The position numbers were made by a program, and so were the translations under genes. The notes under the pieces were generated by a model, which saw only the letters and a list, made by a program, of their open reading frames with translations, was not told where the DNA came from and ran no database searches. Positions 12,579 through 31,973 of a stretch of 64,000 nucleotides of DNA are shown here, piece after piece (within the stretch, counting starts at the first letter, position 1; every line of letters begins with the position of its first letter). Source of the DNA: a virus; IMG/VR virus record IMGVR_UViG_3300009657_000001, positions 1 to 64,000 of that record; one strand, written 5' to 3'.

Positions 12579-14687
12579 ATGTTCGGGAACAACACAGCCA
12601 CAGGCAAGAGCTTCTTCCGTGACAACGCAGAAGCTCAAGCTGGTAAATTGCTCGTGACGTCCATGTTCTACACTCTGCAAGGTGAAGGGCCGTATCGTGG
12701 TGAACCCGCGTTCTTCATTCGCCTTGCGAAGTGCCAACTCCAATGCAGCTTTTGCTTTCCGACGTATAAAACCATCCGGACAGCAAATCGTGGTCTCGTC
12801 GCAATGGGTGATTTGAGAAAAGGTGACATTCTCTATACGTTGGATGAAAATCTGCAATTGACAACTACCAAAGTCACGAAAACAATGCGACGCGAGGTTG
12901 AAGCGGAAGACTTAGTGAACGTAAGTTACGTTACGGACGAAGGCAAAGAGGGTAGTCTAGTTTGTACAAACGAACACCCATTCCATGTCAAGAATCATCC
13001 AAGTGGCAAAGAATATATTCCTGCTGATCACCTTGCAACAGGTGACATCGTCTATTCTGTTTCTGGTAGTGATCGAATTGCGTTCAAAATGAAACAGAAT
13101 AATCCCATGAAGAACAAAAAGACAGCTAAGAAAGTAGCAAAAACTCTTTCCGAAGGCTATTCATCTGGAGAACTTATTCCGTATAAGCGGTCCAAAAAAT
13201 GGCGTAAAGCGCAAGCGCAACGCATGTCGGAAAACAATCCTATGTTCGATTTGCAAGCGCGTAAGTCTATGATGCAAAATAAGATCTATGCGAAGTCCGG
13301 TCTCGAAAAACTTGCACATAAGAAGTTTAAGAAAATTGTTGATGATATTCGTTATGTGGGTAACAAGCCAGACTTCGTTGTTGGGAACGATGAGATAGGC
13401 TACTTGCGCCCAGATTTTGTTATCAAAGGAACACGCAAAGTTATCGAAGTTTATGATCCAACTTTTAAGCCTTATGTACGTGATACTCAAGCGGAACAAA
13501 AGGCTTATGAGGACAACAGGCGACAACACTACAAGAAAGCTGGTTATCGCGTTATCTTCTTTAAGGCTGATGAGTTTAACTGGCGCATTGGTCAGGGCAA
13601 AGGTAATAAAACACTTCCCGATACCTTTAAGAAGAAAGAATTCATTCGTAAGCTTTGTGATTTTGTATATAATGGAGCAAGAATTACATCAGTTGAACCT
13701 TTGAACAAAAGGCAGTATGCGCGTGTTCGATTTACCTGCAATCCTGATACAGGTGTAGCAGAAGTTGCCAATGTATCCTGCGAACCGCATAATCATTATC
13801 TTATTGATGGCTTGCATGTTCATAATTGCGATACGTTCTTTGATGACGGTCAGTGGCTGTCTCTTGATGAGATTGACAAGCTTGTTGACATTGAGATCGA
13901 ACGATTCTTCACCGATCAAGCTAAAGTCGTGCCTCACTGGGCACAATACAGAGCTCCAACGTATACAGCAGAAACAAAGCGCAATGCGGCTCCAGCATTG
14001 AAGCGATTGAATGAAGCTGTGCGAGAAGCTTCTGGTCACAAACGACAAATGGTTCTTGTTATTACTGGTGGTGAACCAACTCTGCAAAACATCAAGCCAC
14101 TGCTAGAGTGGGGTGCGGCGCACTTTAAGAACACACAGATTGAATCGAACGGCATTACAGTGTCTGCGGATGCACTTCCTGCCTCAACAACGGTTGTTGT
14201 ATCTCCAAAATGCCGTGAAGAAGATCGTATCAAAGATGAACCAGAGAATGGTAAGGTTGCTGTTGCGTATTTAAAACCGAGTCAAGCGATGCTTGATCGT
14301 GCCGATTGCTTGAAATTTGTGATGGAAGCCGGTTGGTGGTGGAACGATCCCGATGACCATCTTAAAGGTTACATCAGCGTACCGTCGGCGTACACGTCTA
14401 TTCCGGATTGGGCACATGATTGGGCTGCAAAGACCGGCAAGCCAATCTTTCTATCGCCGATGAACATCTATAAGCAGCTACCGCAAAAAGCCAAAGAATT
14501 GCGTGCGAAGAACACGGAAACAACCATCGAACAACGCTCGCACTACGATGAAGTTGTTTCGTTCTGGCAGGAAGGCTTGCTCGATATGGAAGCGAACAAA
14601 CGCAATCATGAATGGGCAGCACGATATGCAATCGAACACGGATTTATTTTCAACGTACAAATCCATCTTCTGGCGAGTCTCGCATGA
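12579..14687 (+). CDS. queE: 7-carboxy-7-deazaguanine synthase (radical-SAM QueE), interrupted by an intein
   Basis: The N-terminus reads TLQGEGPYRGEPAFFIRLAKCQLQCSF. After splicing the cluster motif becomes CQLQCSFCDT (Cx3Cx2C). Downstream motifs are VITGGEPTL and IESNG. Confidence 0.8.
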   Translation: MFGNNTATGKSFFRDNAEAQAGKLLVTSMFYTLQGEGPYRGEPAFFIRLAKCQLQCSFCFPTYKTIRTANRGLVAMGDLRKGDILYTLDENLQLTTTKVTKTMRREVEAEDLVNVSYVTDEGKEGSLVCTNEHPFHVKNHPSGKEYIPADHLATGDIVYSVSGSDRIAFKMKQNNPMKNKKTAKKVAKTLSEGYSSGELIPYKRSKKWRKAQAQRMSENNPMFDLQARKSMMQNKIYAKSGLEKLAHKKFKKIVDDIRYVGNKPDFVVGNDEIGYLRPDFVIKGTRKVIEVYDPTFKPYVRDTQAEQKAYEDNRRQHYKKAGYRVIFFKADEFNWRIGQGKGNKTLPDTFKKKEFIRKLCDFVYNGARITSVEPLNKRQYARVRFTCNPDTGVAEVANVSCEPHNHYLIDGLHVHNCDTFFDDGQWLSLDEIDKLVDIEIERFFTDQAKVVPHWAQYRAPTYTAETKRNAAPALKRLNEAVREASGHKRQMVLVITGGEPTLQNIKPLLEWGAAHFKNTQIESNGITVSADALPASTTVVVSPKCREEDRIKDEPENGKVAVAYLKPSQAMLDRADCLKFVMEAGWWWNDPDDHLKGYISVPSAYTSIPDWAHDWAAKTGKPIFLSPMNIYKQLPQKAKELRAKNTETTIEQRSHYDEVVSFWQEGLLDMEANKRNHEWAARYAIEHGFIFNVQIHLLASLA
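12753..13826 (+). mobile_element. Intein (358 aa) with NUMOD-like repeats and a PD-(D/E)XK (Vsr-like) endonuclease domain, inserted in the QueE Fe-S cluster motif
   Basis: It starts with Cys (CFPTYKTIRT). Block B is CTNEHPF. It ends LHVHN, followed by a +1 Cys at 13827. The interior has NNPMKNKK and ENNPMFD repeats and the segment RPDFVIKGTRKVIEVYD...GYRVIFF. Confidence 0.8.
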
Positions 14688-15794: not shown

Positions 15795-16287
15795 TCATCG
15801 TGTTTTCCGATACAACTCTACCAAGTTTTACCGAGAGCTAGGCCCTGTTGCTTATCGTCAGTGGCGCGCAGACTCGCATTGTAATCAGCTACATGGTTAC
15901 GCGCTGAGCTTTCTATTTCATTTCTCGTCGGACGATGTTGACGTTCGAAATTGGGTTGTTGATTTTGGAGCTTTGAAGCCTCTCAAAGAAAAGCTTCAAG
16001 AGTGGTTCGACCACACACTTCTTGTTGCGATGGATGATCCTGAAATCGAGCACTTTCTTGCGCTTCACAAAGCGAAACTTGCGCGTGTGGTAGAAGTCGA
16101 ACGCACAGGCTGCGAAGGGATTGCAGATTTCTTGTATCGCTATATTAACAATCCAGAAGACGGCTTTATGAAATCGCTGGGTTATAGTAATGTCTGGTGT
16201 ACGCGCATTGAAGTGCGCGAAACAGAAGCGAACATGGCCTATGTTGAAGGAACACCAGAAACGTGGTCCCTATTTGAGGAAGAATAA
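15787..16287 (+). CDS. queD: 6-carboxy-5,6,7,8-tetrahydropterin synthase (QueD/PTPS family)
   Basis: Motifs are HCNQLHGYALSF (Cys plus Zn-His motif), NWVVDFGALK, FDHTLL and VRETEANMAY. Confidence 0.75.
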   Translation: MFNHRVFRYNSTKFYRELGPVAYRQWRADSHCNQLHGYALSFLFHFSSDDVDVRNWVVDFGALKPLKEKLQEWFDHTLLVAMDDPEIEHFLALHKAKLARVVEVERTGCEGIADFLYRYINNPEDGFMKSLGYSNVWCTRIEVRETEANMAYVEGTPETWSLFEEE

Positions 16288-17195
16288 TGCACGACAATGA
16301 TATTGCAGTTGAGGCTGAGCTTGGTGGTATTTCGGATGCTCTTAGTAATCATCGACTTATCCAACCTCTCCATCTTGCACAGAATGTATTAAAGTACAGC
16401 ACAGTTCAAGATTTTGAACCTGATTTTCGAATGGTTGATCCTCACACGCTTTGGGTTGACGACACGTATCAACGAAGCCCAACCAAGAACTCGATTCGTC
16501 TTGTAAAGAAGATTGTTGAGACCTGGTCTTGGGATAACTTCAAACCACCAATCGTTACCGAATACAACGATTGTCTTTTTGTGGTAGACGGACAGCACAC
16601 GTCCATTGCGGCAGCAACGCACCCGGATATTAAACGAATCCCGGTGTTTGTCATTGGTATCGATCAAGTTTCAGACGCTGCCAAAGCATTCATCGCACAC
16701 AATATGAATCGAACAGCCGTCAATCCGATTCAGTTGTTTAAAGCAAGCATCGAAGCGGGTGATGACGAAGCAATTTCAATTAACATGGCTCTACAACGCG
16801 CCAATGTTAAGCTGTCTTACGGAGCAAACCTCGAAGAACGTATTGGGCATTGTGCGTGTCTTGGAACACTAAAGTCTGTGTTCAATAAGTACGGAATGAT
16901 GAACTTGCGTATTACACTTGATATTTGCGTGGCAAGTAAACTTGCACCAATTCAAGCACATTATGTGGTGGCTATTTCAGAATTGATGTTTGCAAAAGAA
17001 CACAAGTCGAAGTACGATCCACAAGGCATTGCGCTTGCTATTCGAGATTATCCTTACAACAAACTTGTTGCTGACATTGAAAGTCAATCCCGACTTAACA
17101 AAGAGCATCGACAAGTAACTGCTGTTCGAATGATCAAAAACAAGTATGAATCAATGTTTGGAACCGTTGATGCATCAACAACAAACAGTGAATGA
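16287..17195 (+). CDS. ParB/Srx-fold protein with a DGQH motif (DndB/DpdB-like)
   Basis: Motifs are LWVDDTYQR and CLFVVDGQHTSIAAA, a variant of the DGQHR signature. The start forms a TAATG overlap with the queD stop. Confidence 0.6.
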   Translation: MHDNDIAVEAELGGISDALSNHRLIQPLHLAQNVLKYSTVQDFEPDFRMVDPHTLWVDDTYQRSPTKNSIRLVKKIVETWSWDNFKPPIVTEYNDCLFVVDGQHTSIAAATHPDIKRIPVFVIGIDQVSDAAKAFIAHNMNRTAVNPIQLFKASIEAGDDEAISINMALQRANVKLSYGANLEERIGHCACLGTLKSVFNKYGMMNLRITLDICVASKLAPIQAHYVVAISELMFAKEHKSKYDPQGIALAIRDYPYNKLVADIESQSRLNKEHRQVTAVRMIKNKYESMFGTVDASTTNSE

Positions 17196-17604
17196 ATTAC
17201 AGTTTAAAATTCGTCTTCTTGAAGAAGAATTGCGAATTCAAGGCAAAGAACTCCAAACAGCACTTGACAAGATCGACGAACTCAAAGAACTGATGTGTGT
17301 CAAAACCGTTCTCGTTTTACCAATTGAGTGGGGTTTATCACCAACAGAAACAAAGGTTTTGCGCATTATAATGCGACGCGAAATTGTTTCGCGGCAAGAA
17401 GTTTATAATTTTGTATATGACGTACATTCAAGTAATCCACCGGCAGAAAGAACAGTTGACGCTCATATTTGCCATATACGACGAAAATTCAAACGTGCTG
17501 GTGTACCGGTGGTAATTGAAACACGCTTTGGGTTGGGTTTTACCACAGACAAAGAGAGCAGGGACTACCTTATGCAATTTCTAAAAGAGGAAACAGGGCA
17601 ATGA
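17146..17604 (+). CDS. Coiled-coil plus OmpR/PhoB-type winged-helix DNA-binding protein, paralog 2
   Basis: The N-terminal heptads read LQFKIRLLEEELRIQGKELQTALDKIDELKEL. The C-terminus reads EWGLSPTETKVLRIIM...VDAHICHIRRKFKRAGVPVVIETRFGLGF and aligns with the 15405 product. The start could instead be 17170. Confidence 0.65.
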   Translation: MNQCLEPLMHQQQTVNELQFKIRLLEEELRIQGKELQTALDKIDELKELMCVKTVLVLPIEWGLSPTETKVLRIIMRREIVSRQEVYNFVYDVHSSNPPAERTVDAHICHIRRKFKRAGVPVVIETRFGLGFTTDKESRDYLMQFLKEETGQ

Positions 17605-18578
17605 CATTCAAACCTGATATCGTGTACTACCATTATCCATGTTCTGATGGCCTAACATCGGCAGCCGTTGTCTACAGTTACTACGGACCTGGCGCTGGAA
17701 TCGAATTCATTCCGCTTGACTATGGCAATCCACGCAACGTGCAAGAACACATTGATGAGTGTCGAGATAAAACTATATTGATGGTTGACGTCTCATTCAA
17801 GAGTAACAAGAAGGTCAATGATCTTGAAAAGGTCGCACAATCCGCCAACCAAATCGTGATCATTGATCATCACGCTGGTGTGTATGAAGACTTACAGCAA
17901 TATGATGCTGGTACATATATTGCGATTGAGAATTTTGAGAAAATGGTTGGAGATCAAAAGATTGCGTTGATCTTTGACAACAGTCATTCCGGCGCTGGTC
18001 TTGCTTGGTCGATCTTCAACCAAGATAAATCCGTACCAGAGTTTATCAAATACATTGAGCATATCGATCTTGGACGTTCGTCTCTGCCGAATGCTGCACA
18101 ATTTCGCTCGTGGTCCCGTTCACTCCCGTTTAGTATTCCGGAGATTGCAAAAGCAATCAAGATATACCAAACCTTTGATGATCTCGAAGTCGCCTTCGAA
18201 GGTGGTAAAGCCATAGAGCAGTTTGTGCGAACACGCATCGATGTTATCAAAGAACAGGTCCGCTATCTGAAATTCGATGGTTACAAAGACATTCCGTACG
18301 TGATTTCGGATTACGCGTTTGCATCCGAAGCGGCCAATGTCTTCTTGTCGGACGATCATCCGATGGCACTTGTGTTCTTCTTTACCAAAACCGGTCTAGG
18401 CGCGTCTCTGCGATCAACCGATGAAGTAGACGTATCCGAATTTGCAAAGAAGTTCGGTGGCAATGGACACAAGCGTGCTGCGGGTTTCAATATTCCCTGG
18501 ACCGATCTTCCAGCTTTCATTGAAAGCTTTGAGGCGTTTGGAAATCCTATTTTCGGCAATATGTTTCTGGAGCAGTAA
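17601..18578 (+). CDS. DHH/DHHA1 phosphoesterase (NrnA/RecJ-like)
   Basis: Motif I is HYPCSDGLTSA, motif II LMVDVS, motif III VIIDHHAG, and the DHHA1 motif is GGNGHKRAAGF. The start forms an ATGA overlap with the upstream gene. Confidence 0.75.
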   Translation: MTFKPDIVYYHYPCSDGLTSAAVVYSYYGPGAGIEFIPLDYGNPRNVQEHIDECRDKTILMVDVSFKSNKKVNDLEKVAQSANQIVIIDHHAGVYEDLQQYDAGTYIAIENFEKMVGDQKIALIFDNSHSGAGLAWSIFNQDKSVPEFIKYIEHIDLGRSSLPNAAQFRSWSRSLPFSIPEIAKAIKIYQTFDDLEVAFEGGKAIEQFVRTRIDVIKEQVRYLKFDGYKDIPYVISDYAFASEAANVFLSDDHPMALVFFFTKTGLGASLRSTDEVDVSEFAKKFGGNGHKRAAGFNIPWTDLPAFIESFEAFGNPIFGNMFLEQ

Positions 18579-24022: not shown

Positions 24023-24481
24023 ATGAAGTTTTCCTACAATTTCGCTATCACCCCAACGATGTACAATCGAAAGTACGCCAAGAACAAGATCACTGCTGAC
24101 ACACTGTCGATTCAGATCGATCTGGAAAGTGATGAACCTGTACATGGTGGTAGTTTGCAGAACATCGCTGAAGAGGTACGTGAAGCTCTGCACGGTGCAA
24201 CCATCGTGCATGTAAACGATCCGATCATGGTTGATTTGCTTGAACCCAAATCGGGGAACACGGTTCATAACCGTCTCAATGAACTCAAAGCAACTGTGCT
24301 TGAACTGCCTGTTTTTCTGGGACTGACAACACCCCCAGAAACGAAGAATGGTCTTCGCCTTGTGGTATTCCCGTCTGTTGATGACGTAACGCTTGAAGGT
24401 TTGGCACACTGGATCAAGCGTTCTTACTCCAATTTGAGCGCGGTATCGATCACGGATGGATCTCTCATTGTTGAAGTGTAA
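24023..24481 (+). CDS. Hypothetical protein
   Basis: 152-aa ORF with RBS AGGAGAG. Confidence 0.6.
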   Translation: MKFSYNFAITPTMYNRKYAKNKITADTLSIQIDLESDEPVHGGSLQNIAEEVREALHGATIVHVNDPIMVDLLEPKSGNTVHNRLNELKATVLELPVFLGLTTPPETKNGLRLVVFPSVDDVTLEGLAHWIKRSYSNLSAVSITDGSLIVEV

Positions 24482-24526: not shown

Positions 24527-25981
24527 ATGGATTGGACGCGTGATACAATCGACAGCAACAACCGTGGACCTAAGTTGTCCGATCAGGTTGAAATGCTCGA
24601 TTTGCCGTCTGGTGCGGATTTCAAAGCAATCCGTATGATTGGGCCGTCGAAGCGAGTTGCAAAACATCTTTTACCTGTTTTCAAGGCGGATGGTACGCCT
24701 GTTATGAAGAAGGGGCAGCAGGTTCGCGTTCCCAAGGTATGCCTCGCATACAATCACGAAACAGATGCCTACGAAGGCAGTTGCCCGTATTGCAAGATCG
24801 ATCCGAATACTCCGAAGAAGGAAGTACATACCAACGTTATTGATCGCGAAGAACAAGAGAACGAACCCTCCAAGAAGAAGCCACCGACCGAAAAGGAAAA
24901 GAAGGTGCGCGATATGCACGGCCATAAGTTCCGTGTGAAGGAAGGTAAAGGTGGAGCGTGGACACCGGCACGCTACTGGGTTATCAAATCATCTGTTGGG
25001 ACGAAGCTTACGGATTATACCAAGCTTAACAAGCGCAAAGACAAAGATGGCAACGTCAAGGTCTTCCCGCCGCAGCATCCAAAGGCTGGCTTTGATCTCC
25101 AGATCAAGTTTGACAACACAAAAGCTGGTTCGGAAATGTATTCCGTTGTGAAGGATGAAAAGTCTACTCTTTCCGAGGAAGAACTGAAGTACCTGCTGTG
25201 GGATATCGATGTTGATAAGCCCGAAGACATGGAGACTGCAAAGAAAGAAGCAGCATCGTTTGCAAAGCGTATGAAAGCTGGTGCGCAAGCAAACGGTGAT
25301 TCTGACTCCGACGATGACGACGACGCACCCAAGAAAAAGAAGGGTTCCAAAAAGTCTGCCGAAGACGATTCCTGGGATGAGGATGAAGACTTTGAAGACG
25401 ATGACGAGCCCAAGAAGAAGAAAAAGTCTTCCAAGAAGCCCAAGGACGACGATGACGACGATGCACCTTGGGGTGATGATGACGAAGACGAAAAGCCCAA
25501 GAAGAAAAAGAAGCCTCGTGACGAAGATGAAGACGACGAGGATGACGAACCCAAGAAGAAGTCTTCCAAGAAGTCTAAAAAGTCAGACGATGAAGATTGG
25601 GATTCCGATGACGAAGATGATAGCGATGACGATGACGATGAAGACGAACGTCCGAAGAAAAAATCCAAGGTAAAACCGAAAAAGAAGCCCAAAGATGAGG
25701 ACGATTGGGATTCGGATGATGACGAGGATTCCGACGAAGATGAGGACGAAGAGGATGAGCGCCCCAAAAAGAAGTCGAAGTCCAAAGAAAAGGTAAAGCC
25801 GAAATCTTCCAAGAAGAAGTCCGAAGATTGGGATGACGACGAAGACGATGATGACTCGGATGAAGATGATGACGAGGATGAGGAAGAAGAACGTCCGAAG
25901 AAGTCTTCTAAGAACGCATCAAAGGCCAAGTCGAAAAAGAAGCCCAAGGACGACGATGACGACTCAGATTGGGATGACTAG
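24527..25981 (+). CDS. gp32-like ssDNA-binding protein with a C-terminal tail of about 230 aa made of alternating acidic and basic blocks
   Basis: The N-terminal half has KAIRMIGP and a Cys-x4-His...Cys-x2-Cys zinc motif (CLAYNHETDAYEGSCPYC), as in T4 gp32. The tail is described under findings. Confidence 0.6.
   Translation: MDWTRDTIDSNNRGPKLSDQVEMLDLPSGADFKAIRMIGPSKRVAKHLLPVFKADGTPVMKKGQQVRVPKVCLAYNHETDAYEGSCPYCKIDPNTPKKEVHTNVIDREEQENEPSKKKPPTEKEKKVRDMHGHKFRVKEGKGGAWTPARYWVIKSSVGTKLTDYTKLNKRKDKDGNVKVFPPQHPKAGFDLQIKFDNTKAGSEMYSVVKDEKSTLSEEELKYLLWDIDVDKPEDMETAKKEAASFAKRMKAGAQANGDSDSDDDDDAPKKKKGSKKSAEDDSWDEDEDFEDDDEPKKKKKSSKKPKDDDDDDAPWGDDDEDEKPKKKKKPRDEDEDDEDDEPKKKSSKKSKKSDDEDWDSDDEDDSDDDDDEDERPKKKSKVKPKKKPKDEDDWDSDDDEDSDEDEDEEDERPKKKSKSKEKVKPKSSKKKSEDWDDDEDDDDSDEDDDEDEEEERPKKSSKNASKAKSKKKPKDDDDDSDWDD
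25295..25978 (+). repeat. Coding low-complexity repeat: about 7 K-rich blocks alternating with D/E-rich, Trp-containing blocks
   Basis: Reiterated GAT/GAC/GAA runs alternate with AAG/AAA runs. The peptide pattern is (E/D)(R)PKKK(S/K)...DD(W)D(S)DD. Confidence 0.9.
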
Positions 25982-26033: not shown

Positions 26034-26561
26034 ATGTGGAGCAATGCGAATCTGAAAAATGACGCATGGTTTTTAAAAGCTGTTGAAAAGGGTTTGTTAC
26101 TCGTTAGTAGACAAGGAATTGTAACAAACCCTAAAACTGGTAACATTTTAGGATCTAAACCTTTAGCAAAAGCTGGCGGTTATCATCGTGTCTGTCTTTC
26201 GTACAAGGGTAGAAATCATTCGATCTACCTACATAGATTGGTTTGGCTAGTATTCAAAGGTCCAATACCTGAAGGTTATCAGGTAAACCATAAAAATGGA
26301 AATAGATCGAAAAATTGTTTGAGTAACTTTAATTTAAAAACCAATGCCGAAAACACTGAGCACGGTTATAGAAGACTTGGGAATTCTCAACGATCAGGTG
26401 TGAATCACAAGCTTTCAGCTTTTAATGCCAGTCAAGTTCGAGAAATACGAAAGCTCTACCGTAAAGGAAGTACACAGAAGAGTATTGCAGATCGTTTCCA
26501 CGTGTCACAAAAGGCAGTATTTAATGTGGTTAACTACCGGTCATACACAGAGGTTGCTTAA
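26034..26561 (+). CDS. HNH homing endonuclease with a C-terminal helix-turn-helix module
   Basis: The HNH region reads GYHRVCLSYKGRNHSIYLHRLVW...VNHKNGNRSKNCLSNFNL. The C-terminus reads STQKSIADRFHVSQKAVFNV. The gene is AT-rich and sits between the SSB and recombinase genes. Confidence 0.8.
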   Translation: MWSNANLKNDAWFLKAVEKGLLLVSRQGIVTNPKTGNILGSKPLAKAGGYHRVCLSYKGRNHSIYLHRLVWLVFKGPIPEGYQVNHKNGNRSKNCLSNFNLKTNAENTEHGYRRLGNSQRSGVNHKLSAFNASQVREIRKLYRKGSTQKSIADRFHVSQKAVFNVVNYRSYTEVA

Positions 26562-28111
26562 TGGCGAGAATAGCTAAAAAGAAAGAACGAACAACACCAA
26601 AAACGAAGGCCGCGAAACACACACGCGCACCGCGCAATGAGGTTGTTGAACTTACACGCGCACAAAAGATGGCGCTTTTCTATTCGAAAGAATCGAAAGG
26701 TATTGAAAACGATCTCACGCTGGTATCAAACACAATCAAAGAGCCTGAACGCCTCTCCACTGGTGTCCTTGTTCTTGATTGGATATCCGGCGGAGGTAAG
26801 GTCCCAGGTCTTCTTATTGTTGCAGGTGAAGAAGCCTCTGGTAAAACAACACAATTGTTTCATAGTATTGCGCAATCTCATGGTGTTATGAAGCTTCCAA
26901 CCACGAAGATGTGGGATGCAGAAGGATCAACATCGCCAAAATACGCAGGTAACATCCTTTCACCGTTCGGTCTTGATTTTAAGACTCTCATGACCGAACA
27001 AGGGCATGATGAAGGGTTTTATTACTTCCGTAACAACGTCATTGAACGTATGTTTGATTATCTCAAACGTACACTTAGCCAAATGCCTGATAAGAATTGG
27101 GTTTCCCAGATTGAAAGCTGGGCTTATTTCTTTCCGAAACGCGACGACGTTGCAAAACGTTTGATGCAAGCACTCGACGTTAAGGCTGATAAAACGTTGT
27201 CGGCTGGTGGCGACTTCTACGTATGTCCGACAGATTATGGTGGTCCAGAAGGCTTGTTTGCAGTTGATAGCTTTGCATCGCTGCTTACCAAAGCAGAGGA
27301 ACAAAAGGAAGATTCTGATAAGGGTAAACGATCTGCACTGGAAGCAAGTGCCTTCTCTGAGCATTTGAAACGTGTTAAAGTCGATCTGTTTGATAAAAAG
27401 ATCATTATGTATGGAACCAATCAGCTAGGTTCACATGTACGCGCTGTTTATGGTTCGCCAGAAGATCAATTGTATGAAAAGGGTGGTAACGCACTCAAGT
27501 TCTACAGTGATGAACGTAGTCGTACCTTTAGCCGTTCTCCGTCAAACGGTGCAAAATGGGGGCCGTTTACCTGGGATAAAGATAATTCTAAATTTGGCAT
27601 AGAAGAATCTGTCGAAGCAAAAGGGACAGATCGTTATGCATATAAAGAAGCGAAAAATACCAAGAACAAATTTGGTAAACCGGGACTAAAGGCACCGTAT
27701 CGAGTTTGGGTCAGTGACGCACACGGAAATCCTCGCGGTATTGATCCAGTGTTTGACGTTTGGGTGCATTTGCGCAATACAGGACAGCTTGGAAAAGACG
27801 GACAGTCTACATTCAAGTTTCGTTTGAAGCCTGGTGTTGGTAAGAAGCGTGCAGCAAAGCTAAATGCACTCAAGGGATTCAAATTCCCAGTATTCAAAAA
27901 GCTTATCATCGCTGAATACACTAACAACGAACGTTTGTTGCGCGAAGCGCTATCGGAATTGGGAGCAGACTTCAAGCCCGGTCTTCGTATCGCTCTTTTC
28001 GCACAAATGAAGAACTTCGAAGATGAGGTATACTCCAACGTCAAGGATTCTGCCAAGACAGAAGCGGATGAGATGGAGGATGCACCAGACGAAGATTATG
28101 AAAGCATTTGA
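26561..28111 (+). CDS. RecA/UvsX-family recombinase
   Basis: LSTGVLVLDWISGGGKVPGLLIVAGEEASGKTT covers the RecA N-terminal core and Walker A. Walker B-like is FAVDSFASLL, followed by MYGTNQL. The C-terminal tail is acidic. Confidence 0.7.
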   Translation: MARIAKKKERTTPKTKAAKHTRAPRNEVVELTRAQKMALFYSKESKGIENDLTLVSNTIKEPERLSTGVLVLDWISGGGKVPGLLIVAGEEASGKTTQLFHSIAQSHGVMKLPTTKMWDAEGSTSPKYAGNILSPFGLDFKTLMTEQGHDEGFYYFRNNVIERMFDYLKRTLSQMPDKNWVSQIESWAYFFPKRDDVAKRLMQALDVKADKTLSAGGDFYVCPTDYGGPEGLFAVDSFASLLTKAEEQKEDSDKGKRSALEASAFSEHLKRVKVDLFDKKIIMYGTNQLGSHVRAVYGSPEDQLYEKGGNALKFYSDERSRTFSRSPSNGAKWGPFTWDKDNSKFGIEESVEAKGTDRYAYKEAKNTKNKFGKPGLKAPYRVWVSDAHGNPRGIDPVFDVWVHLRNTGQLGKDGQSTFKFRLKPGVGKKRAAKLNALKGFKFPVFKKLIIAEYTNNERLLREALSELGADFKPGLRIALFAQMKNFEDEVYSNVKDSAKTEADEMEDAPDEDYESI

Positions 28112-28291: not shown

Positions 28292-28771
28292 ATGGCACGC
28301 AAGTCTAACGCCAAGAACGATCTCAAGGCCGCTATCGACGAACTCGATGACGAAATTGCAGGTGCGCTGCTTCCGCTCGTTACCAAGCTCGCTGACGCCG
28401 ACGCCGATTCGGCTGCCGACGATGAAGACGATCTTGACGATGATCTCGATGACGATCTGGATGATGCACCGAAGTCGAAGCGCGGCGCCAAGAAGTCTTC
28501 CAAGAAGTCCAAGGACGAAGATGAAGACGACCTGGACGACGATGATGACCTTGACGACGATCTGGATGATGAAGATGACCTGGACGGCGACGATGACGAC
28601 GACCTCGAAGATGACGAGGACGACGAAGACGAGGATGAAGACGAAGAGGACGAAAAGCCTGCACGTCGTGGCCGTGGTCGCGGTAAAGCCCCTGCAAAGA
28701 AGGCTCCGGCTAAAAAGGCTCCTGCAAAGAAAGCCCCGGCAAAGAAGACGACTCGTCGCGGTCGCCGCTAA
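28292..28771 (+). CDS. Highly acidic D/L-repeat protein with an RGRGRG plus (KAPAK)x4 basic tail
   Basis: ATG at 28292 follows the RBS GGAG; the ORF track starts at the TTG at 28277. The acidic region reads DDLDDDLDDDLDD...DEDEDEEDE and the tail reads ARRGRGRGKAPAKKAPAKKAPAKKAPAKK. Confidence 0.7.
   Translation: MARKSNAKNDLKAAIDELDDEIAGALLPLVTKLADADADSAADDEDDLDDDLDDDLDDAPKSKRGAKKSSKKSKDEDEDDLDDDDDLDDDLDDEDDLDGDDDDDLEDDEDDEDEDEDEEDEKPARRGRGRGKAPAKKAPAKKAPAKKAPAKKTTRRGRR
28685..28744 (+). repeat. 4 x 15-nt tandem coding repeat (KAPAK)
   Basis: The sequence is AAAGCCCCTGCAAAG / AAGGCTCCGGCTAAA / AAGGCTCCTGCAAAG / AAAGCCCCGGCAAAG. Confidence 0.9.
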
Positions 28772-29567: not shown

Positions 29568-31973
29568 TTGACTGATTTTCTCAAAGATTTAGCCTATGAC
29601 AATATTACGCAGCATCTTGATACATTGGGTGTTCCCGGTGATGGTTTGAACTGGGCACGCGTTCAATTGTATGCTGAATCGTACCACAAGTTAACAAAAG
29701 CAAAACCGGTAAAAGATCCACGCACATTTGAACTAAGCGACGATCAAAAGTCTGCTTGGACAAAGTTGCAAACGTGGGCAATCAATGACAAACCTTACTT
29801 CGTGTTGCGCGGATACGCTGGGGCTGGTAAAGAGCAACCACTTTGGACAAAAGTGCAAACACCGGCTGGCGTAAAAACCTTTGGAAATTTGAAGATTGGT
29901 GACGAGATATACGGCAAAAACGGAAAACTTACTAAAGTAACGGCTGTGTATCCCCAAGGTAGGAAGCCTTTTTATAAAATTACATTCCGTGACAGAGTTT
30001 CGACCTATTGTAGTATAGATCACCTTTGGAATGTTTTTGATAAAAAGGGTAAAAACAGAATTCTAACCACTCAGCAACTTATTGATTCTGGTTTAAGCAA
30101 TAGCGCTGGTTACAAATTTAGCGTACCATTGTGCGAACCTGTTGCATATGAAAAGAAAAAACTTCCAATACATCCCTATGTTTTAGGAGTTTTACTCGGT
30201 AACGGATGTTTGATGGGCGACAACGCAGTTCCACGAATTTCGTGTGCCGCGTATGACACGTTCGTTATGAAAAAAGTTAAGACTCTTGAACCAGAATTCA
30301 CTTATACTCGTCGATTGACCTCTGAAAATTGTTTTGAATACAACATTAGAGACAATGAGTATAGAAATCGTATGAAAATTGCTCTGAAAGAGCTTGGTTT
30401 GTGGGGTATGTCATCGAGAAATAAATTTATTCCCAAAACTTACTTGTTGTCATCAATTGAAGACAGGAAAGCGCTGTTGGCAGGTCTATTGGATACTGAT
30501 GGGTCAGCCTCTCAAAATGGTGGTGGTCGTTATTCTACATACTCCACACGACTTATGAAGGGCATTCGTAGGCTGGTGCAATCGCTTGGCGGCTTAGCAA
30601 TGCTAGACCCGTCGTCCAAAAAGCATGATGAATACTCTGTGAATATATCGATGCTTTTTAATCCGTTCACTTTACCACGTAAAGTGAAACGGTACATGGT
30701 GCATAAATCGCGGTTTAATAAACCCAAGAGAGCTATCACTAAAATAGAGTACATGGGAGAAACTGAGCAACAGTGCATTACAGTTGCGGCAAAAGACCAT
30801 TTGTATCTTACGGATCATTTCATAGTAACGCATAATACTTTTCTGCTGCAACTGATGAAAGACCTTGACATTGAGTTGATGTTCACGGCTCCTACAAACA
30901 AAGCGACCAAAGTGCTTGGGAATGCTGTCACAGCAAAAGCAAGTACCACATTTAGTGCGCTCGGTATCAAGATGGCACAGAATGAAGACGGTTTGGAGCT
31001 CAAATTTAGTGATACTCCACCGCACATTCCGAAAGGAACTGTGTTGGTTATCGATGAATCAAGTATGGTTGGTGAAATTCTCTACGATTTCATTGTTGAA
31101 ACACAAGATCGCACCGATTGTAAGGTTCTCTTCGTTGGAGATCCTGCGCAGCTACCGCCGGTTGGTGAACTGCGTAGCAAAACGTGGCAAGCAACAAAAG
31201 ACCTATCATGTCGTGCGTTCTTGAAACAAATCATGCGTTATGATAACGAGTTGCTCAAGCTTGCAACGGATATCCGCACATGCATTGAAGATCAAGACTT
31301 CCATGTGCAGATTAAAAACAACAATAACGGTGAAGAAGGTGTGTTTGTACATAAAAACATCACCACACCGATCCTAAAGTTCAAGAACCCCGCAGATTGG
31401 CAGTCGCGTAAGATCATTGCATGGCGCAACAAGACTGTGAACAACTACAATGAAATGCTGCGTGAAAACTTCGGTTTCAACGAGCGCTTCAATGTTGGAG
31501 ACATTCTGCTTCTAGCAGAACCGATTGAGGAAGATGGCAACATTGTTGCAAGCATCGATGAAGAATTCAGTGTTGTTGACGTCCATAAGGATGCGCGCAC
31601 TGTTGAGCATAGAGGGAACACATACAGCGTTCCAGTATGGCGTCTTGAAGCAAAAGGTGACGTCGACCAGATCTTGTACATTGCGATCAACGATTCCAAT
31701 GTTGATAAAATCCTATCAGAGAAGGCAGGTGATGCACGTTCGGCGCAACCGTCTGCGAAGCGTGCTGCGTGGCGTGATTTCTGGGAGACGAAGTCACTCT
31801 TTCACAAAGTCCGTTATGGGTATGCGCTTACAGCGCATCGCGCACAAGGTAGTACGTACTCCGAAGTGTTTTTGGATCGGCGCGATATTTTGCTGAACCA
31901 GAACAAGAAAGAGGCTTGGCGCTGCCTCTATGTCGCCGCGACACGCGCAACGACAAGTATTCACACGTTTTGA
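29568..31973 (+). CDS. SF1 RecD/Dda-like DNA helicase, interrupted by an intein in the Walker A motif
   Basis: TTG start follows the RBS GGGAG. Splicing joins GYAGAGK to TFLLQ, giving the P-loop GAGKT. Other motifs are TAPTNKATKVL, VLVIDESSMV, FVGDPAQLPPV and ALTAHRAQGSTY. Confidence 0.8.
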   Translation: MTDFLKDLAYDNITQHLDTLGVPGDGLNWARVQLYAESYHKLTKAKPVKDPRTFELSDDQKSAWTKLQTWAINDKPYFVLRGYAGAGKEQPLWTKVQTPAGVKTFGNLKIGDEIYGKNGKLTKVTAVYPQGRKPFYKITFRDRVSTYCSIDHLWNVFDKKGKNRILTTQQLIDSGLSNSAGYKFSVPLCEPVAYEKKKLPIHPYVLGVLLGNGCLMGDNAVPRISCAAYDTFVMKKVKTLEPEFTYTRRLTSENCFEYNIRDNEYRNRMKIALKELGLWGMSSRNKFIPKTYLLSSIEDRKALLAGLLDTDGSASQNGGGRYSTYSTRLMKGIRRLVQSLGGLAMLDPSSKKHDEYSVNISMLFNPFTLPRKVKRYMVHKSRFNKPKRAITKIEYMGETEQQCITVAAKDHLYLTDHFIVTHNTFLLQLMKDLDIELMFTAPTNKATKVLGNAVTAKASTTFSALGIKMAQNEDGLELKFSDTPPHIPKGTVLVIDESSMVGEILYDFIVETQDRTDCKVLFVGDPAQLPPVGELRSKTWQATKDLSCRAFLKQIMRYDNELLKLATDIRTCIEDQDFHVQIKNNNNGEEGVFVHKNITTPILKFKNPADWQSRKIIAWRNKTVNNYNEMLRENFGFNERFNVGDILLLAEPIEEDGNIVASIDEEFSVVDVHKDARTVEHRGNTYSVPVWRLEAKGDVDQILYIAINDSNVDKILSEKAGDARSAQPSAKRAAWRDFWETKSLFHKVRYGYALTAHRAQGSTYSEVFLDRRDILLNQNKKEAWRCLYVAATRATTSIHTF
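29832..30836 (+). mobile_element. Class 3-type intein (335 aa) with LAGLIDADG endonuclease, in the helicase P-loop
   Basis: There is no Cys/Ser/Thr at the N-terminus (EQPLWTKV). Block B is SIDHLW (Trp at B12), block F is EQQCITV (Cys at F4), block G is IVTHN (Thr at G5), and the +1 residue is Thr. The LAGLIDADG motifs are LGVLLGNGCL and LLAGLLDTDGSA. Confidence 0.75.

What the first reader, a model, noticed from the sequence alone, without database searches (positions are those of the whole stretch)
25295..25978. The SSB carries a C-terminal tail of about 230 aa made of seven K-rich blocks alternating with D/E-rich, Trp-containing blocks
**Seen in sequence.** After a gp32-like zinc-containing core, the protein alternates between basic and acidic blocks.
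- Basic blocks include PKKKKGSKKS, PKKKKKSSKKPK, KPKKKKKPR, PKKKSSKKSKKS and RPKKKSKVKPKKKPK.
- Acidic blocks include EDDSWDEDEDFEDDDE, DDDDDDAPWGDDDEDE, DDEDWDSDDEDDSDDDDDEDE and further similar blocks.
- The protein ends ...DDDDSDWDD.

**Established knowledge.** Bacterial and T4 SSBs end in a single short acidic tip that recruits partner proteins. Strongly blocky arrangements of opposite charges favour self-association or coacervation.

**Inference.** The tail could be a multivalent version of the SSB acidic tip, with the repeated D-W-D motifs acting as partner-binding sites. It could also be a self-interacting scaffold that concentrates replication and recombination proteins. I do not know of a described SSB with such a tail.
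Basis: partly seen in the sequence, partly recalled or inferred. Interest (0 to 1): 0.65.

Follow-up and report, generated by a model that had tools for sequence, protein, structure and literature searches.

The report
Charge-block disordered tail on phage SSB

Summary
ORF 24527-25981 (+, 484 aa) has a confidently modelled core (pLDDT 88.5). Its only structural matches are T4/RB69 gp32. A 228-aa tail follows (nt 25295-25978), with 7 basic and 8 acidic blocks. Trp sits in 6 of the 8 acidic blocks. Charge segregation is far beyond chance (kappa 0.55; z about 15; 0/5000 shuffles).

It is not an artefact. The DNA repeats are degenerate, and the identical protein occurs on 8 contigs.

It is not unique either. 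A core-only profile finds 687 clusters at 50% identity. Of 146 diverse representatives, 125 have significantly blocky tails (median 142 aa, maximum 341). Their C-terminal tips fall into classes: E. coli-SSB-like DDDIPF, poly-K, or D-W-D as here. The window protein is an extreme member: its tail is long, and it has six Trp where no representative has more than four. T4 gp32's own tail has 48 aa, almost no basic residues and no blockiness.

Best reading (inferred, not shown): an expanded SSB linker-plus-tip. The charge blocks would drive salt-sensitive tail-tail, tail-DNA and tail-partner association. The acidic-Trp motifs and the terminal tip would act as docking sites.

No description of such tails was found in the searchable literature. 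I rate it a new variant of a known kind, of moderate interest.

The parts
24527..25981 (+). SSB gene, 484 aa plus stop codon
   Evidence: ORF listing. PHROG 15004 'single strand DNA binding protein', E=8e-44. The identical product is called on 8 contigs.
24527..24562 (+). N-terminal aa 1-12 (MDWTRDTIDSNN), predicted disordered. It is not basic, unlike the T4 gp32 N-terminus.
   Evidence: pLDDT below 50 in both models. 'MDW' is conserved in the close clade. The gp32 N-terminus MFKRKST was read.
24527..25294 (+). Folded core, aa 1-256, with a gp32-like OB fold
   Evidence: AlphaFold2 pLDDT 88.5, pTM 0.83. Foldseek PDB: 2a1k RB69 SSB E=1e-5, 1gpc T4 gp32 E=5.5e-4, and 8gme. BFVD: phage SSBs.
24665..24793 (+). 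Candidate zinc-binding residues H47, C72, C86 and C89 (C86-P-Y-C89)
   Evidence: C86 is invariant and H47/C72/C89 are at least 90% conserved. CPYC aligns with gp32 C87-P-V-C90.
25229..25294 (+). Long C-terminal helix of the core (aa 235-256), just before the tail. It may be the counterpart of the gp32 248-269 partner-binding helix.
   Evidence: DSSP helix 235-255/256 with block-mean pLDDT of roughly 87-92. The gp32 comparison comes from PMC11551737 and is an inference.
25295..25978 (+). Disordered charge-block tail, aa 257-484 (228 aa, net charge -49)
   Evidence: No secondary structure and pLDDT 42-55. Kappa 0.55 and z=15. Patterning z-scores 8.0, 15.8 and 15.1.
25295..25327 (+). Acidic block 1, GDSDSDDDDDA (net -7, no Trp)
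25328..25357 (+). Basic block 1, PKKKKGSKKS (net +6)
25358..25411 (+). Acidic block 2, AEDDSWDEDEDFEDDDEP (net -13). It contains the conserved motif aromatic-x5-hydrophobic, W283...F289 (nt 25373-25393).
   Evidence: The same motif occurs in relatives: WDDDEDF (P0012), WGDDEDL (P0090), FGDDEDL (P0001) and FNEDEDM (P0094), and FDEDEDM (RHph_N46).
25412..25444 (+). Basic block 2, KKKKKSSKKPK (net +8)
25445..25495 (+). Acidic block 3, DDDDDDAPWGDDDEDEK (net -11; W315)
25496..25519 (+). Basic block 3, PKKKKKPR (net +6)
25520..25552 (+). Acidic block 4, DEDEDDEDDEP (net -10, no Trp)
25553..25585 (+). Basic block 4, KKKSSKKSKKS (net +7)
25586..25651 (+). Acidic block 5, DDEDWDSDDEDDSDDDDDEDER (net -17; W358)
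25652..25693 (+). Basic block 5, PKKKSKVKPKKKPK (net +9)
25694..25762 (+). Acidic block 6, DEDDWDSDDDEDSDEDEDEEDER (net -18; W394)
25763..25822 (+). Basic block 6, PKKKSKSKEKVKPKSSKKKS (net +10)
25823..25894 (+). Acidic block 7, EDWDDDEDDDDSDEDDDEDEEEER (net -20; W435)
25895..25948 (+). Basic block 7, PKKSSKNASKAKSKKKPK (net +9)
25949..25978 (+). Acidic block 8 and C-terminal tip, DDDDDSDWDD (net -8; W482)
   Evidence: The D-W-D(n) ending is conserved in P0012, P0018, P0052, P0069, P0063, P0064, P0060, P0090, P0001 and P0002, and in PaBG-like members.
26561..28111 (+). Context: UvsX/RecA-like recombinase with a K-rich N-terminal extension and an acidic, aromatic C-terminus. It is a candidate partner of the tail.
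   Evidence: Pfam RecA E=4e-15 and PHROG 97 UvsX-like. Termini. SSB followed by UvsX is conserved in relatives. Any interaction is inferred only.
28292..28771 (+). Context: 159-aa protein with an N-terminal helix, long Leu-punctuated acidic tracts, one K-block and a (KKAPA)x4 basic end. It uses the same charge grammar in the same gene module.
   Evidence: Conserved in L008 and in Rhizobium phage RHph_N46, where it is labelled 'CDC45-like'.

Best explanation
The tail is the enlarged, intrinsically disordered C-terminal region of a gp32-fold phage SSB. Functionally it corresponds to the disordered linker plus C-terminal tip of bacterial SSB, and to the C-terminal domain of T4 gp32.

**Shown**
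- It is disordered, very highly charged and strongly segregated into K-blocks and D/E-blocks.
- This architecture, rather than the exact sequence, is conserved across a large phage SSB family.
- In this clade, aromatic residues sit only inside acidic blocks. They form a conserved first-block motif (W283-x5-F289) and a conserved D-W-D C-terminal tip.

**Inferred mechanism**
- When many SSB molecules line up on ssDNA, K-blocks of one tail would pair with D/E-blocks of neighbouring tails. They could also pair with DNA, or with the oppositely charged disordered ends of the UvsX-like recombinase and the small acidic/basic protein encoded just downstream.
- That would give salt-sensitive cooperative coating and possibly a condensate-like replication and recombination compartment.
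- The acidic-Trp motifs and the terminal tip would act as repeated low-affinity docking sites. Possible targets are basic or hydrophobic pockets of partner enzymes, and possibly the protein's own ssDNA-binding groove when no DNA is bound.
For: - **Disorder.** No secondary structure and pLDDT 42-55 over aa 257-484, next to a confident core.
- **Blockiness.** Kappa 0.55, z=15. Pos-pos, neg-neg and pos-neg z are 8.0, 15.8 and 15.1.
- **Conservation of the pattern.**
  - 125 of 143 scored tails among 146 representatives (each under 50% identical to the others) have blockiness z of at least 5.
  - 127 have at least 2+2 blocks, and only 3 have a tail under 30 aa.
  - The family has 687 clusters.
- **Tips of the partner-binding type.** 25 of 146 representatives end in xPF, for example DDDIPF as in E. 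coli SSB. The window's clade ends in D-W-D(n).
- **Aromatic placement.** Trp is 6/0 in acidic versus basic context in the window and 32/0 in the clade. The first-block motif is conserved as far as the Rhizobium phages.
- **Complementary charged ends nearby.** Both the UvsX-like protein and the small downstream protein have them, and they are conserved in relatives.
- **Precedents in the literature.**
  - The E. coli SSB tip binds at least 18 partners and its own OB fold, and linker-linker multivalency drives condensation (PMC7584906).
  - The gp32 C-terminus is described as bifunctional, with a partner-binding part and an acidic part proposed to occupy the ssDNA site (PMC11551737).
  - gp32 and UvsX form condensates in vitro (PMC11951158).
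  - K-blocks and D/E tracts tethered to nucleic-acid-binding domains drive complex coacervation of nucleolar proteins (PMC11938373).
Against: - There is no experimental or structural evidence for any interaction. Everything beyond sequence, disorder and conservation is inference.
- The tail is strongly net negative (-49). Self-coacervation without a polycationic partner, DNA-bound counter-ions or Mg2+ is therefore not guaranteed.
- The SCD measure is no different from shuffles in the window (z=-0.2).
- Canonical SSB tips use a free C-terminal carboxylate (general knowledge, from memory). Internal Trp motifs lack one, so they are not equivalent to a tip.
- Most family members have no Trp in the tail and many end in poly-K. 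The docking-site part of the model cannot be general.
- A minority have non-blocky tails, for example Voja-6 with kappa 0.14.
Confidence: 0.45

Rival explanations
1. The tail is purely a multivalent recruitment platform. The six acidic-Trp motifs are repeated copies of the SSB tip, each binding a phage replication or recombination enzyme. The K-blocks serve only as spacers and charge compensators that keep the tail off the core and keep the protein soluble. No tail-tail association or condensation is involved.
For: - Internal motifs resemble the terminal tip, and Trp positions are conserved in the clade.
- Trp occurs only in acidic context and is evenly spaced, about one per block (aromatic patterning z=-1.4).
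- The T4-type gp32 tail also has repeated acidic-Phe motifs (DAF, DDF, DDF), and its hydrophobic residues matter for binding Dda (PMC11551737).
Against: - Multi-Trp tails are rare. Only 3 of 146 representatives have at least 3 Trp, whereas the K/DE alternation is almost universal.
- That alternation therefore needs an explanation that does not depend on Trp.
- K-blocks carry conserved features of their own, such as Pro at block edges and K/S composition. Inert spacers would not be expected to show this.
Confidence: 0.2
2. The tail is mainly an autoinhibitory, DNA-mimicking flap that regulates DNA binding. Acidic blocks would occupy the basic ssDNA groove until ssDNA displaces them, as proposed for the gp32 acidic end. 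K-blocks would provide a secondary, non-specific nucleic-acid contact that helps transfer and sliding.
For: - The core is net positive (+9) and the tail strongly negative.
- The acidic end of gp32 (~273-301) is proposed to bind its own ssDNA site in the absence of DNA (PMC11551737).
- The E. coli SSB tip binds its own OB fold and competes with ssDNA (PMC7584906).
Against: - One short acidic segment is enough for this in gp32 (48 aa).
- It does not explain 7-10 alternating blocks, 230-340-aa tails, or family members that end in poly-K.
- AlphaFold2 did not dock any tail segment onto the core with confidence. This is weak evidence.
Confidence: 0.15
3. The tail has no specific function. It would be a tolerated low-complexity expansion from replication slippage, or a generic solubility or 'entropic bristle' tag. 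On this view the block pattern is a by-product of how the repeats arose.
For: - Tail length and block number vary widely, from 2 to 341 aa and from 1 to 11 blocks.
- Degenerate direct repeats of roughly 36-41 codons show growth by duplication.
- Low-complexity regions are often evolutionarily labile (general knowledge).
Against: - Presence of a tail and its blockiness are retained in about 87% of very diverse members, across phages of Erwinia, Dickeya, Pseudomonas, Rhizobium, Vibrio, Xanthomonas, Achromobacter and Yersinia.
- Specific short motifs and tips are conserved.
- Repeats are old and degenerate, with mixed synonymous codons.
- Within the 64-kb window, only this protein and one neighbour in the same module show such extreme charge density.
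Confidence: 0.12
4. The tail is a sequencing, assembly or gene-calling artefact: a collapsed or expanded repeat, or the wrong reading frame.
For: Low-complexity DNA also produces long spurious ORFs in other frames, for example the 310-aa Ser-rich ORF at 25015..25947 on the minus strand.
Against: - The identical protein is on 8 contigs.
- Repeats are only 60-78% identical.
- Homologues from independent sources have the same architecture in the same frame, continuous with a conserved core.
Confidence: 0.01

Closest known systems
Bacteriophage T4 / RB69 gp32 (ssDNA-binding protein with an acidic C-terminal domain)
   Same: - The core is the best structural match (PDB 2a1k, 1gpc, 8gme).
- It has a Cys/His zinc motif, with CPYC aligning to CPVC.
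- It has an acidic, partly aromatic C-terminal region.
- It sits in a T4-style module with SbcCD-like (gp46/47-type), UvsX-like and Dda-like genes.
   Different: - Structural alignments show only 12-13% identity. There is no significant sequence match to Pfam (no hit at all, so not the gp32 model either) or to PDB sequences.
- The N-terminus lacks the basic KRKST-type cooperativity motif.
- The gp32 tail is 48 aa, 6% basic, net -12, blockiness z=0.5. Here the tail is 228 aa, 26% basic, net -49, z=15.
Bacterial SSB (E. coli type): OB fold + intrinsically disordered linker + conserved C-terminal peptide (...DDDIPF)
   Same: - The three-part logic is the same: ssDNA-binding fold, a disordered linker of variable length and composition, and an acidic/hydrophobic tip (PMC7584906).
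- 25 of 146 family representatives, and Achromobacter phage Motura, end in xPF or DDDIPF.
   Different: - The fold is different (gp32-type, with no Pfam SSB hit).
- The window protein ends in DWDD, not IPF.
- From memory, the E. coli linker is Gly/Gln/Pro-rich and nearly uncharged. Here the linker is 74% charged and blocky.
Nucleolar disordered regions with D/E tracts and K-blocks (nucleolin, UBF, NUCKS, NOLC1/Nopp140; King et al. 2024, PMC11938373)
   Same: - Blocks of lysines are interspersed with long acidic tracts and tethered to a nucleic-acid-binding domain.
- Patterning z-scores exceed that paper's threshold of 3 (pos-pos 8.0, neg-neg 15.8, pos-neg 15.1, computed with my own implementation of the measure).
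- This resemblance explains database labels such as 'Nop14-like' and 'CDC45-like' on the phage homologues.
   Different: - There is no homology; the resemblance is one of composition and patterning only.
- The tail is Asp-rich (D 0.34, E 0.14), so it fails that paper's 'E at least equal to D' rule for K-block + E-rich regions.
- The setting is a bacterial virus, and Trp is embedded in the acidic blocks.
- Condensation has not been tested here.
Phage T7 gp2.5 acidic C-terminal tail with a terminal aromatic residue (from memory, not checked here)
   Same: An acidic tail whose aromatic residue is essential for binding replisome partners, and which competes with ssDNA for the protein's own binding surface.
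   Different: It has a single short tail and a different fold and oligomeric state. It has no basic blocks and no repetition.

Membership tests
gp32-type phage SSB (T4/RB69 gp32) | Core with the gp32 OB-fold architecture | tested here: met
   The AlphaFold2 core has pLDDT 88.5. The top six Foldseek PDB hits are all gp32 or RB69 SSB, at E from 1e-5 to 3e-2 and probability 0.94-1.0, with TM 0.40-0.54 normalised to the target. The next hit has probability 0.02. BFVD hits are phage SSBs.
gp32-type phage SSB (T4/RB69 gp32) | Significant sequence similarity to the family (Pfam gp32 model or PDB gp32 sequences) | tested here: not met
   No Pfam hit for the protein or for any of the 19 aligned family cores. 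Neither phmmer nor the core profile finds anything real in PDB sequences. The profile against T4-type gp32 gives a negative bit score.
gp32-type phage SSB (T4/RB69 gp32) | Zinc site formed by one His and three Cys (gp32 H64, C77, C87, C90) | tested here: inconclusive
   H47, C72, C86 and C89 are conserved in at least 90% of aligned members, and CPYC aligns with CPVC. The geometry could not be measured because no coordinates were available. Some family members (GR11A, Motura) lack the Cys residues.
gp32-type phage SSB (T4/RB69 gp32) | Basic N-terminal cooperativity domain (KRKST-type motif) | tested here: not met
   The N-terminus MDWTRDTIDSNNRGPKLSD is not basic, whereas gp32 begins MFKRKSTAEL. 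A different short N-terminal motif (RGF or MDW) is conserved instead.
gp32-type phage SSB (T4/RB69 gp32) | Acidic C-terminal domain | tested here: met
   The tail is net -49 with 48% D/E. It is nearly five times longer than in gp32 and is interrupted by seven K-blocks, which gp32 lacks.
gp32-type phage SSB (T4/RB69 gp32) | Cooperative ssDNA binding | not testable with these tools
   This needs biochemistry.
PHROG 15004 (jumbo-phage 'single strand DNA binding protein') | Significant match to the family profile | tested here: met
   E=8.3e-44, covering aa 15-364 against profile positions 20-385 of 421. Homologues are annotated as SSB in PaBG, Y3, Motura and the P. putida phages. The name is an annotation, not a tested function.
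Bacterial SSB (OB + disordered linker + C-terminal peptide) | SSB-type OB domain (Pfam SSB) | tested here: not met
   No Pfam hit. The fold matches gp32, not bacterial SSB.
Bacterial SSB (OB + disordered linker + C-terminal peptide) | Disordered linker after the DNA-binding domain | tested here: met
   Aa 257-484 have no secondary structure and pLDDT 42-55.
Bacterial SSB (OB + disordered linker + C-terminal peptide) | Conserved C-terminal tip ending in (D)DDIPF | tested here: not met
   The window protein ends in DDDDDSDWDD. The feature is met by other members of the same phage family: Motura ends in ...DDDIPF, and 25 of 146 representatives end in xPF.
Nucleolar-type charge-block disordered regions (King et al. 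2024 definitions) | D/E tract: neg-neg patterning z of at least 3 | tested here: met
   Neg-neg z=15.8, with 0/5000 shuffles reaching it. This used my own implementation, not the authors' software. The definition was read.
Nucleolar-type charge-block disordered regions (King et al. 2024 definitions) | K-blocks + E-rich region: pos-pos and pos-neg z of at least 3, and fraction E at least equal to fraction D | tested here: not met
   Pos-pos z=8.0 and pos-neg z=15.1 pass. The composition rule fails, with D 0.34 greater than E 0.14. The K-block z-score itself was not computed.
Nucleolar-type charge-block disordered regions (King et al. 2024 definitions) | Drives salt-sensitive complex coacervation with nucleic acid or partners | not testable with these tools
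   This needs in vitro reconstitution or validated coarse-grained simulation.

The most novel reading that the evidence does not exclude
A large lineage of jumbo phages may have independently evolved the sequence pattern of eukaryotic nucleolar scaffold proteins: K-blocks alternating with D/E tracts, tethered to a nucleic-acid-binding domain. On this reading the SSB is the scaffold of a membrane-less replication and recombination compartment in the infected bacterium. The UvsX-like recombinase, with its K-rich N-terminus and acidic C-terminus, and the small acidic/basic protein downstream would be co-scaffolds or clients. The repeated acidic-Trp motifs would be client-recruitment sites, and the tip class (DDIPF, DWD or poly-K) would set which host or phage enzymes are drawn in.
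Probability: 0.25. Interest if true: 0.8.

Novelty: new variant of a known kind. Interest (0 to 1): 0.55.

Why it matters
- **A new kind of SSB tail.** SSB tails are a textbook case of a disordered linker plus a short partner-binding tip. Here a gp32-fold SSB family of 687 clusters at 50% identity has replaced the bland linker with a long, strongly segregated polyampholyte. In different clades it is capped with an E. coli-type DDIPF tip, a Trp-acidic tip or poly-lysine.
- **A natural experimental series.** If the blocks drive electrostatic self-association, these proteins offer natural variation in block number (1-11), net charge and tip type. That would let one test how charge patterning controls SSB cooperativity, hand-off to recombinase and helicase, and condensate formation in bacteria.
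- **Convergence with the nucleolus.** It would also be a clear case of convergence with nucleolar sequence patterns.
- **Practical value.**
  - The result corrects misleading annotations on phage proteins ('Nop14-like', 'CDC45-like').
  - gp32 and UvsX are the working proteins of recombinase-polymerase amplification, where condensation is reported to accelerate the reaction (PMC11951158). Naturally 'stickier' homologues could be useful there.

Tried and rejected
- **Assembly or frame artefact.** Rejected. The identical protein is on 8 contigs, the DNA repeats are degenerate, and homologues are in-frame.
- **Feature unique to this phage.** Rejected by the family surveys.
- **Sequence-level link to gp32.** Pfam, PDB sequences with phmmer and with the core profile, and the profile against T4-type gp32 all gave nothing. 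Only fold comparison links them.
- **Close relatives among annotated phages.** Megablast of 12 kb found only a 38-nt low-complexity match. tblastn found the core at no more than 39% identity.
- **First protein search.** A single-sequence search with the core found only 2 relatives, so a profile of diverse cores was needed.
- **SCD as a patterning measure.** It was uninformative for the window tail (z=-0.2) because the large net charge dominates it. Kappa-type measures were used instead.
- **Zinc-site geometry.** It could not be checked because model coordinates are not exposed.
- **Literature.** Six full-text searches, plus reading a jumbo-phage overview and the PaBG paper, found no description of these tails. 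One search failed on term syntax, as did one paper reading. The library lacks most subscription-journal papers, so absence there is not proof.
- **Docking of the tail on the core.** The full-length AlphaFold2 model gave no confident contact.


Full report
**1. What is there**

The finding lies inside ORF 24527..25981 (+ strand, 484 aa). Nt 25295-25978 are exactly codons 257-484.

Segmentation gives 15 alternating blocks:
- 8 acidic blocks, with net charge -7 to -20.
- 7 basic blocks, with net charge +6 to +10.

The tail composition is D78, K56, E31, S27, P14 and W6. It is 74% charged and has a net charge of -49, while the core is +9.

One small correction is needed. Trp occurs in six of the eight acidic blocks, not in all of them, and there is one Phe.

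**2. Is it more than chance, and is it real?**

Charge segregation is extreme:
- Kappa is 0.55, and the segregation measure lies 15 SD above 1000 composition-preserving shuffles.
- Patterning z-scores of the kind used for nucleolar proteins are 8.0 (pos-pos), 15.8 (neg-neg) and 15.1 (pos-neg). None of 5000 shuffles reaches them.
- Trp lies only in acidic context (6/0, p=0.003). Pro lies almost only at the edges of, or within, the basic blocks (1/11, p=0.01).

The DNA argues against an artefact:
- It is not a clean tandem repeat. Repeat families are 60-78% identical with variable spacing.
- Asp codons are split GAT 40 / GAC 38.
- The identical 484-aa product is called on eight contigs, seven of them 50-200 kb, including a 180.5-kb JGI metagenome contig.

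The Ser-rich 310-aa ORF on the minus strand, and the other-frame ORFs over the same region, are by-products of the low-complexity sequence.

**3. The core**
- Pfam finds nothing, and PDB sequence searches find nothing.
- PHROG 15004, 'single strand DNA binding protein', matches at E=8e-44.
- An AlphaFold2 model of aa 1-256, built on a 40-sequence alignment, is confident (pLDDT 88.5, pTM 0.83).
- Its six best PDB matches are all RB69 or T4 gp32, at E=1e-5 to 3e-2 and probability 0.94-1.0. The next hit has probability 0.02.
- The viral structure library returns family members first and then diverse phage SSBs.
- H47, C72, C86 and C89 are conserved in at least 90% of the aligned members.
- The only local match between the family profile and a T4-type gp32 is CPYC against CPVC, at gp32's zinc ligands C87 and C90.

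'gp32-like, probably zinc-binding core' is therefore supported by fold but not by sequence. The N-terminus (aa 1-12, disordered) is not basic, unlike the gp32 cooperativity motif.

**4. The tail is disordered**

In a full-length model, aa 257-484 have no secondary structure and pLDDT 42-55. No segment docks on the core.

**5. The tail is a family trait**

Distant homologues of the core occur in 42 phage records. These are jumbo phages of Rhizobium, Vibrio, Achromobacter, Pseudomonas (including PaBG), Xanthomonas, Erwinia, Dickeya and Yersinia. The gene is usually followed by a UvsX/RecA-like gene, directly or after one intervening ORF.

Reading their products shows the same alternating K and D/E tails in RHph_N46, Motura, PaBG and Y3, with kappa 0.51-0.68. 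GR11A is weaker (kappa 0.30). Voja-6 has a basic, non-blocky tail (kappa 0.14).

A profile search of the 5.8-billion-protein collection gave 100 members, nearly all with tails of 80-230 aa. The window's tail, at 232 aa, was the longest among them.

An exhaustive HMMER search with a core-only profile against 1.84 billion cluster representatives found 687 clusters at E of 1e-3 or better, and 378 at 1e-30 or better. Among 146 representatives with a complete core:
- Tail length has a median of 142 aa and a range of 2-341 aa. 101 tails are at least 100 aa and 34 are at least 200 aa.
- 125 of the 143 scored tails have blockiness z of at least 5.
- 127 have at least two blocks of each sign, and 27 have at least seven basic blocks.
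- Only 3 have a tail under 30 aa.
- Tips fall into classes: 25 end in xPF (for example DDDIPF, the E. coli SSB tip), 26 are basic (poly-K, typical of the Erwinia and Dickeya phages), 28 are acidic, and 5 are W-acidic.
- Only 33 have any Trp in the tail, only 3 have at least 3 Trp, and none has 6.

The window protein is thus an extreme member of a common type. Its tail is in the upper length range, and it has the most Trp seen.

**6. Short conserved motifs inside the tail**

In the window's clade (core identity 41-73%), three features recur:
- Unit boundaries of the form E-[R/K]-P-K-K.
- A first acidic block containing aromatic-x5-hydrophobic. Examples are W283DEDEDF289 in the window, WDDDEDF, WGDDEDL, FGDDEDL and FNEDEDM in relatives, and FDEDEDM in Rhizobium phage RHph_N46.
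- A D-W-D(n) C-terminus.

Internal Trp residues lie 4-9 residues after the preceding K-block.

**7. Context**

The gene sits in a T4-style replication and recombination module. In order it contains: sigma factor, SbcD-like, SbcC-like, a 152-aa ORF, the SSB, an HNH endonuclease, UvsX-like, two small ORFs, a Dda-like helicase, and topoisomerase II.

Two neighbours have complementary charged disordered ends:
- The UvsX-like protein has a K-rich N-terminal extension (MARIAKKKERTTPKTKAAKHTRAPR). It also has an acidic, aromatic C-terminus (...DAPDEDYESI). Both are conserved in kind in relatives.
- A 159-aa protein immediately downstream has a short N-terminal helix, long Leu-punctuated acidic tracts, one K-block and a (KKAPA)x4 end. 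It too is conserved, and is labelled 'CDC45-like' in RHph_N46.

Within the 64-kb window, only the SSB and this small protein reach a charged fraction of 0.92 over 25 residues.

**8. Comparison with what is known**
- **T4-type gp32.** Its tail (aa 254-301) is 48 aa, 6% basic, net -12 and not blocky (z=0.5). It has acidic-Phe motifs. Its C-terminus is described as bifunctional. A ~248-269 segment binds Dda through hydrophobic residues. An acidic ~273-301 segment is proposed to occupy the ssDNA site when DNA is absent (PMC11551737).
- **E. coli SSB.**
  - It consists of an OB fold, a disordered linker of non-conserved composition, and a conserved nine-residue C-terminal peptide.
  - The peptide binds at least 18 partners and also the OB fold.
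  - Linker multivalency and peptide-OB contacts drive condensation (PMC7584906).
- **gp32 and UvsX in vitro.** Both form condensates under crowding (PMC11951158).
- **Nucleolar proteins.** D/E tracts and K-blocks tethered to DNA- or RNA-binding domains drive salt-sensitive complex coacervation (PMC11938373).
- **How this tail compares with the nucleolar definitions.** It passes that paper's z thresholds. It fails the 'E at least equal to D' rule because it is Asp-rich.

**9. Interpretation**

*Shown:* a disordered, strongly charge-segregated tail; its conservation as a pattern across a very large gp32-fold SSB family; clade-specific short motifs and tips of the type that bind partners in other SSBs; and complementary charged ends on neighbouring recombination proteins.

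*Inferred:* the tail is an enlarged SSB linker-plus-tip.
- Its K-blocks and D/E-blocks would mediate salt-sensitive tail-tail, tail-DNA and tail-partner association on ssDNA. That would give cooperativity and possibly a condensate.
- Its acidic-Trp motifs and tip would be repeated low-affinity docking sites.

I give this 0.45. Rivals are listed below:
- Recruitment platform only: 0.20.
- Autoinhibitory DNA-mimic flap: 0.15.
- Non-specific bristle or neutral expansion: 0.12.
- Artefact: 0.01.

The main caveats are the total absence of functional data, the large net negative charge, and the rarity of Trp-bearing tails within the family.

**10. Novelty**

Six full-text searches, a jumbo-phage comparative review and the PaBG genome paper gave no description of these tails. 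The searchable library is incomplete, however. Database annotations ('hypothetical', 'Nop14-like', 'single strand DNA binding protein') suggest the feature has gone unnoticed.

I rate it a new variant of a known kind: an SSB disordered tail with a nucleolar-like charge-block pattern. It is of moderate interest and readily testable.

Noticed in passing
window 28292-28771 (+); also L008 8760-9209 and L001 6034-6444: A small protein (159 aa) just downstream of the UvsX-like gene. It has an N-terminal helix, long Leu-punctuated acidic tracts (DDLDDDLDDD...), one K-block and a (KKAPA)x4/RGRG basic end. It is conserved in relatives and is labelled 'CDC45-like' in Rhizobium phage RHph_N46. It uses the same charge grammar as the SSB tail and sits where a recombination mediator might be expected.
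   Followed up: partly
window 26561-28111 (+): The UvsX/RecA-like recombinase has a K-rich N-terminal extension (+7 in the first 30 aa) and an acidic C-terminus with Tyr (...DAPDEDYESI). Relatives (L008, RHph_N46, Motura, PaBG) have the same kind of K-rich N-terminal extension and an acidic C-terminus; the C-terminal Tyr recurs in L008 and RHph_N46. These ends may be electrostatic partners of the SSB tail.
   Followed up: partly
window 29568-31973 (+): The Dda-like helicase (801 aa) appears to carry an intein-like insertion in or near its Walker A motif (GYAGAGK...). There is a LAGLIDADG-type motif (LAGLLDTDGS), a weak Pfam LAGLIDADG_3 hit and '...VTHN|T' at the end of the insert. PHROG hits to terminase, DnaC and primase families over aa 71-454 probably reflect inteins in those families.
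   Followed up: no
window 26034-26561 (+): An HNH homing-type endonuclease with a C-terminal HTH is inserted between the SSB and UvsX genes. It is also present in the 64%-identity relative L008. It is absent from RHph_N46, Motura, PaBG and Y3, where UvsX follows the SSB directly. T4-type phages likewise carry a homing endonuclease next to gene 32 (L009).
   Followed up: partly
family members: L003 2953-4467 (Motura); P0082, P0079, P0108, P0151 and others: Many gp32-fold SSBs of this family end in DDDIPF, DVPF or DMPF, which is the E. coli-type SSB C-terminal tip (25 of 146 representatives). This suggests that these phages plug into host SSB-interacting proteins. Others end in 7-8 consecutive lysines.
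   Followed up: partly
L002 2944-3963 (Vibrio phage GR11A); L003 2953-4467 (Motura); L004 2866-3951 (Voja-6): Some family members lack the conserved Cys residues of the putative zinc site (for example ...IEDPYESIP, ...KYDPWLDAA). The zinc site therefore seems dispensable in parts of the family.
   Followed up: no
window 25475-25512: The only megablast hit of the 12-kb region to annotated phages is a 38-nt, 97%-identical stretch inside the tail. It matches a gene annotated 'clamp loader of DNA polymerase' in Erwinia phages pEa_SNUABM_7 and pEa_SNUABM_21. This is probably a chance low-complexity match, but it may mean that protein also has a charged tract.
   Followed up: no
window 25015-25947 (-) and 25281-25673 (+, other frame): Long spurious ORFs, a 310-aa Ser-rich one and a Met/Thr/Arg-rich one, overlap the tail. 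They are a by-product of the GAN/AAG codon repetition and are not genes.
   Followed up: yes
window 12579-14687 (+), 16287-17195 (+), 17601-18578 (+): Upstream are a 702-aa ORF whose C-terminal third matches a QueE-like radical SAM family (possibly 7-deazaguanine DNA modification), a ParB-like protein and a DHH phosphoesterase. The related Vibrio phage GR11A has a TGT-domain gene near its SSB.
   Followed up: no
window 24023-24481 (+): A 152-aa ORF between the SbcC-like gene and the SSB is conserved in position in L008 (155 aa). It has no informative family match, only weak sub-threshold hits to tail-completion and tail-terminator families.
   Followed up: no
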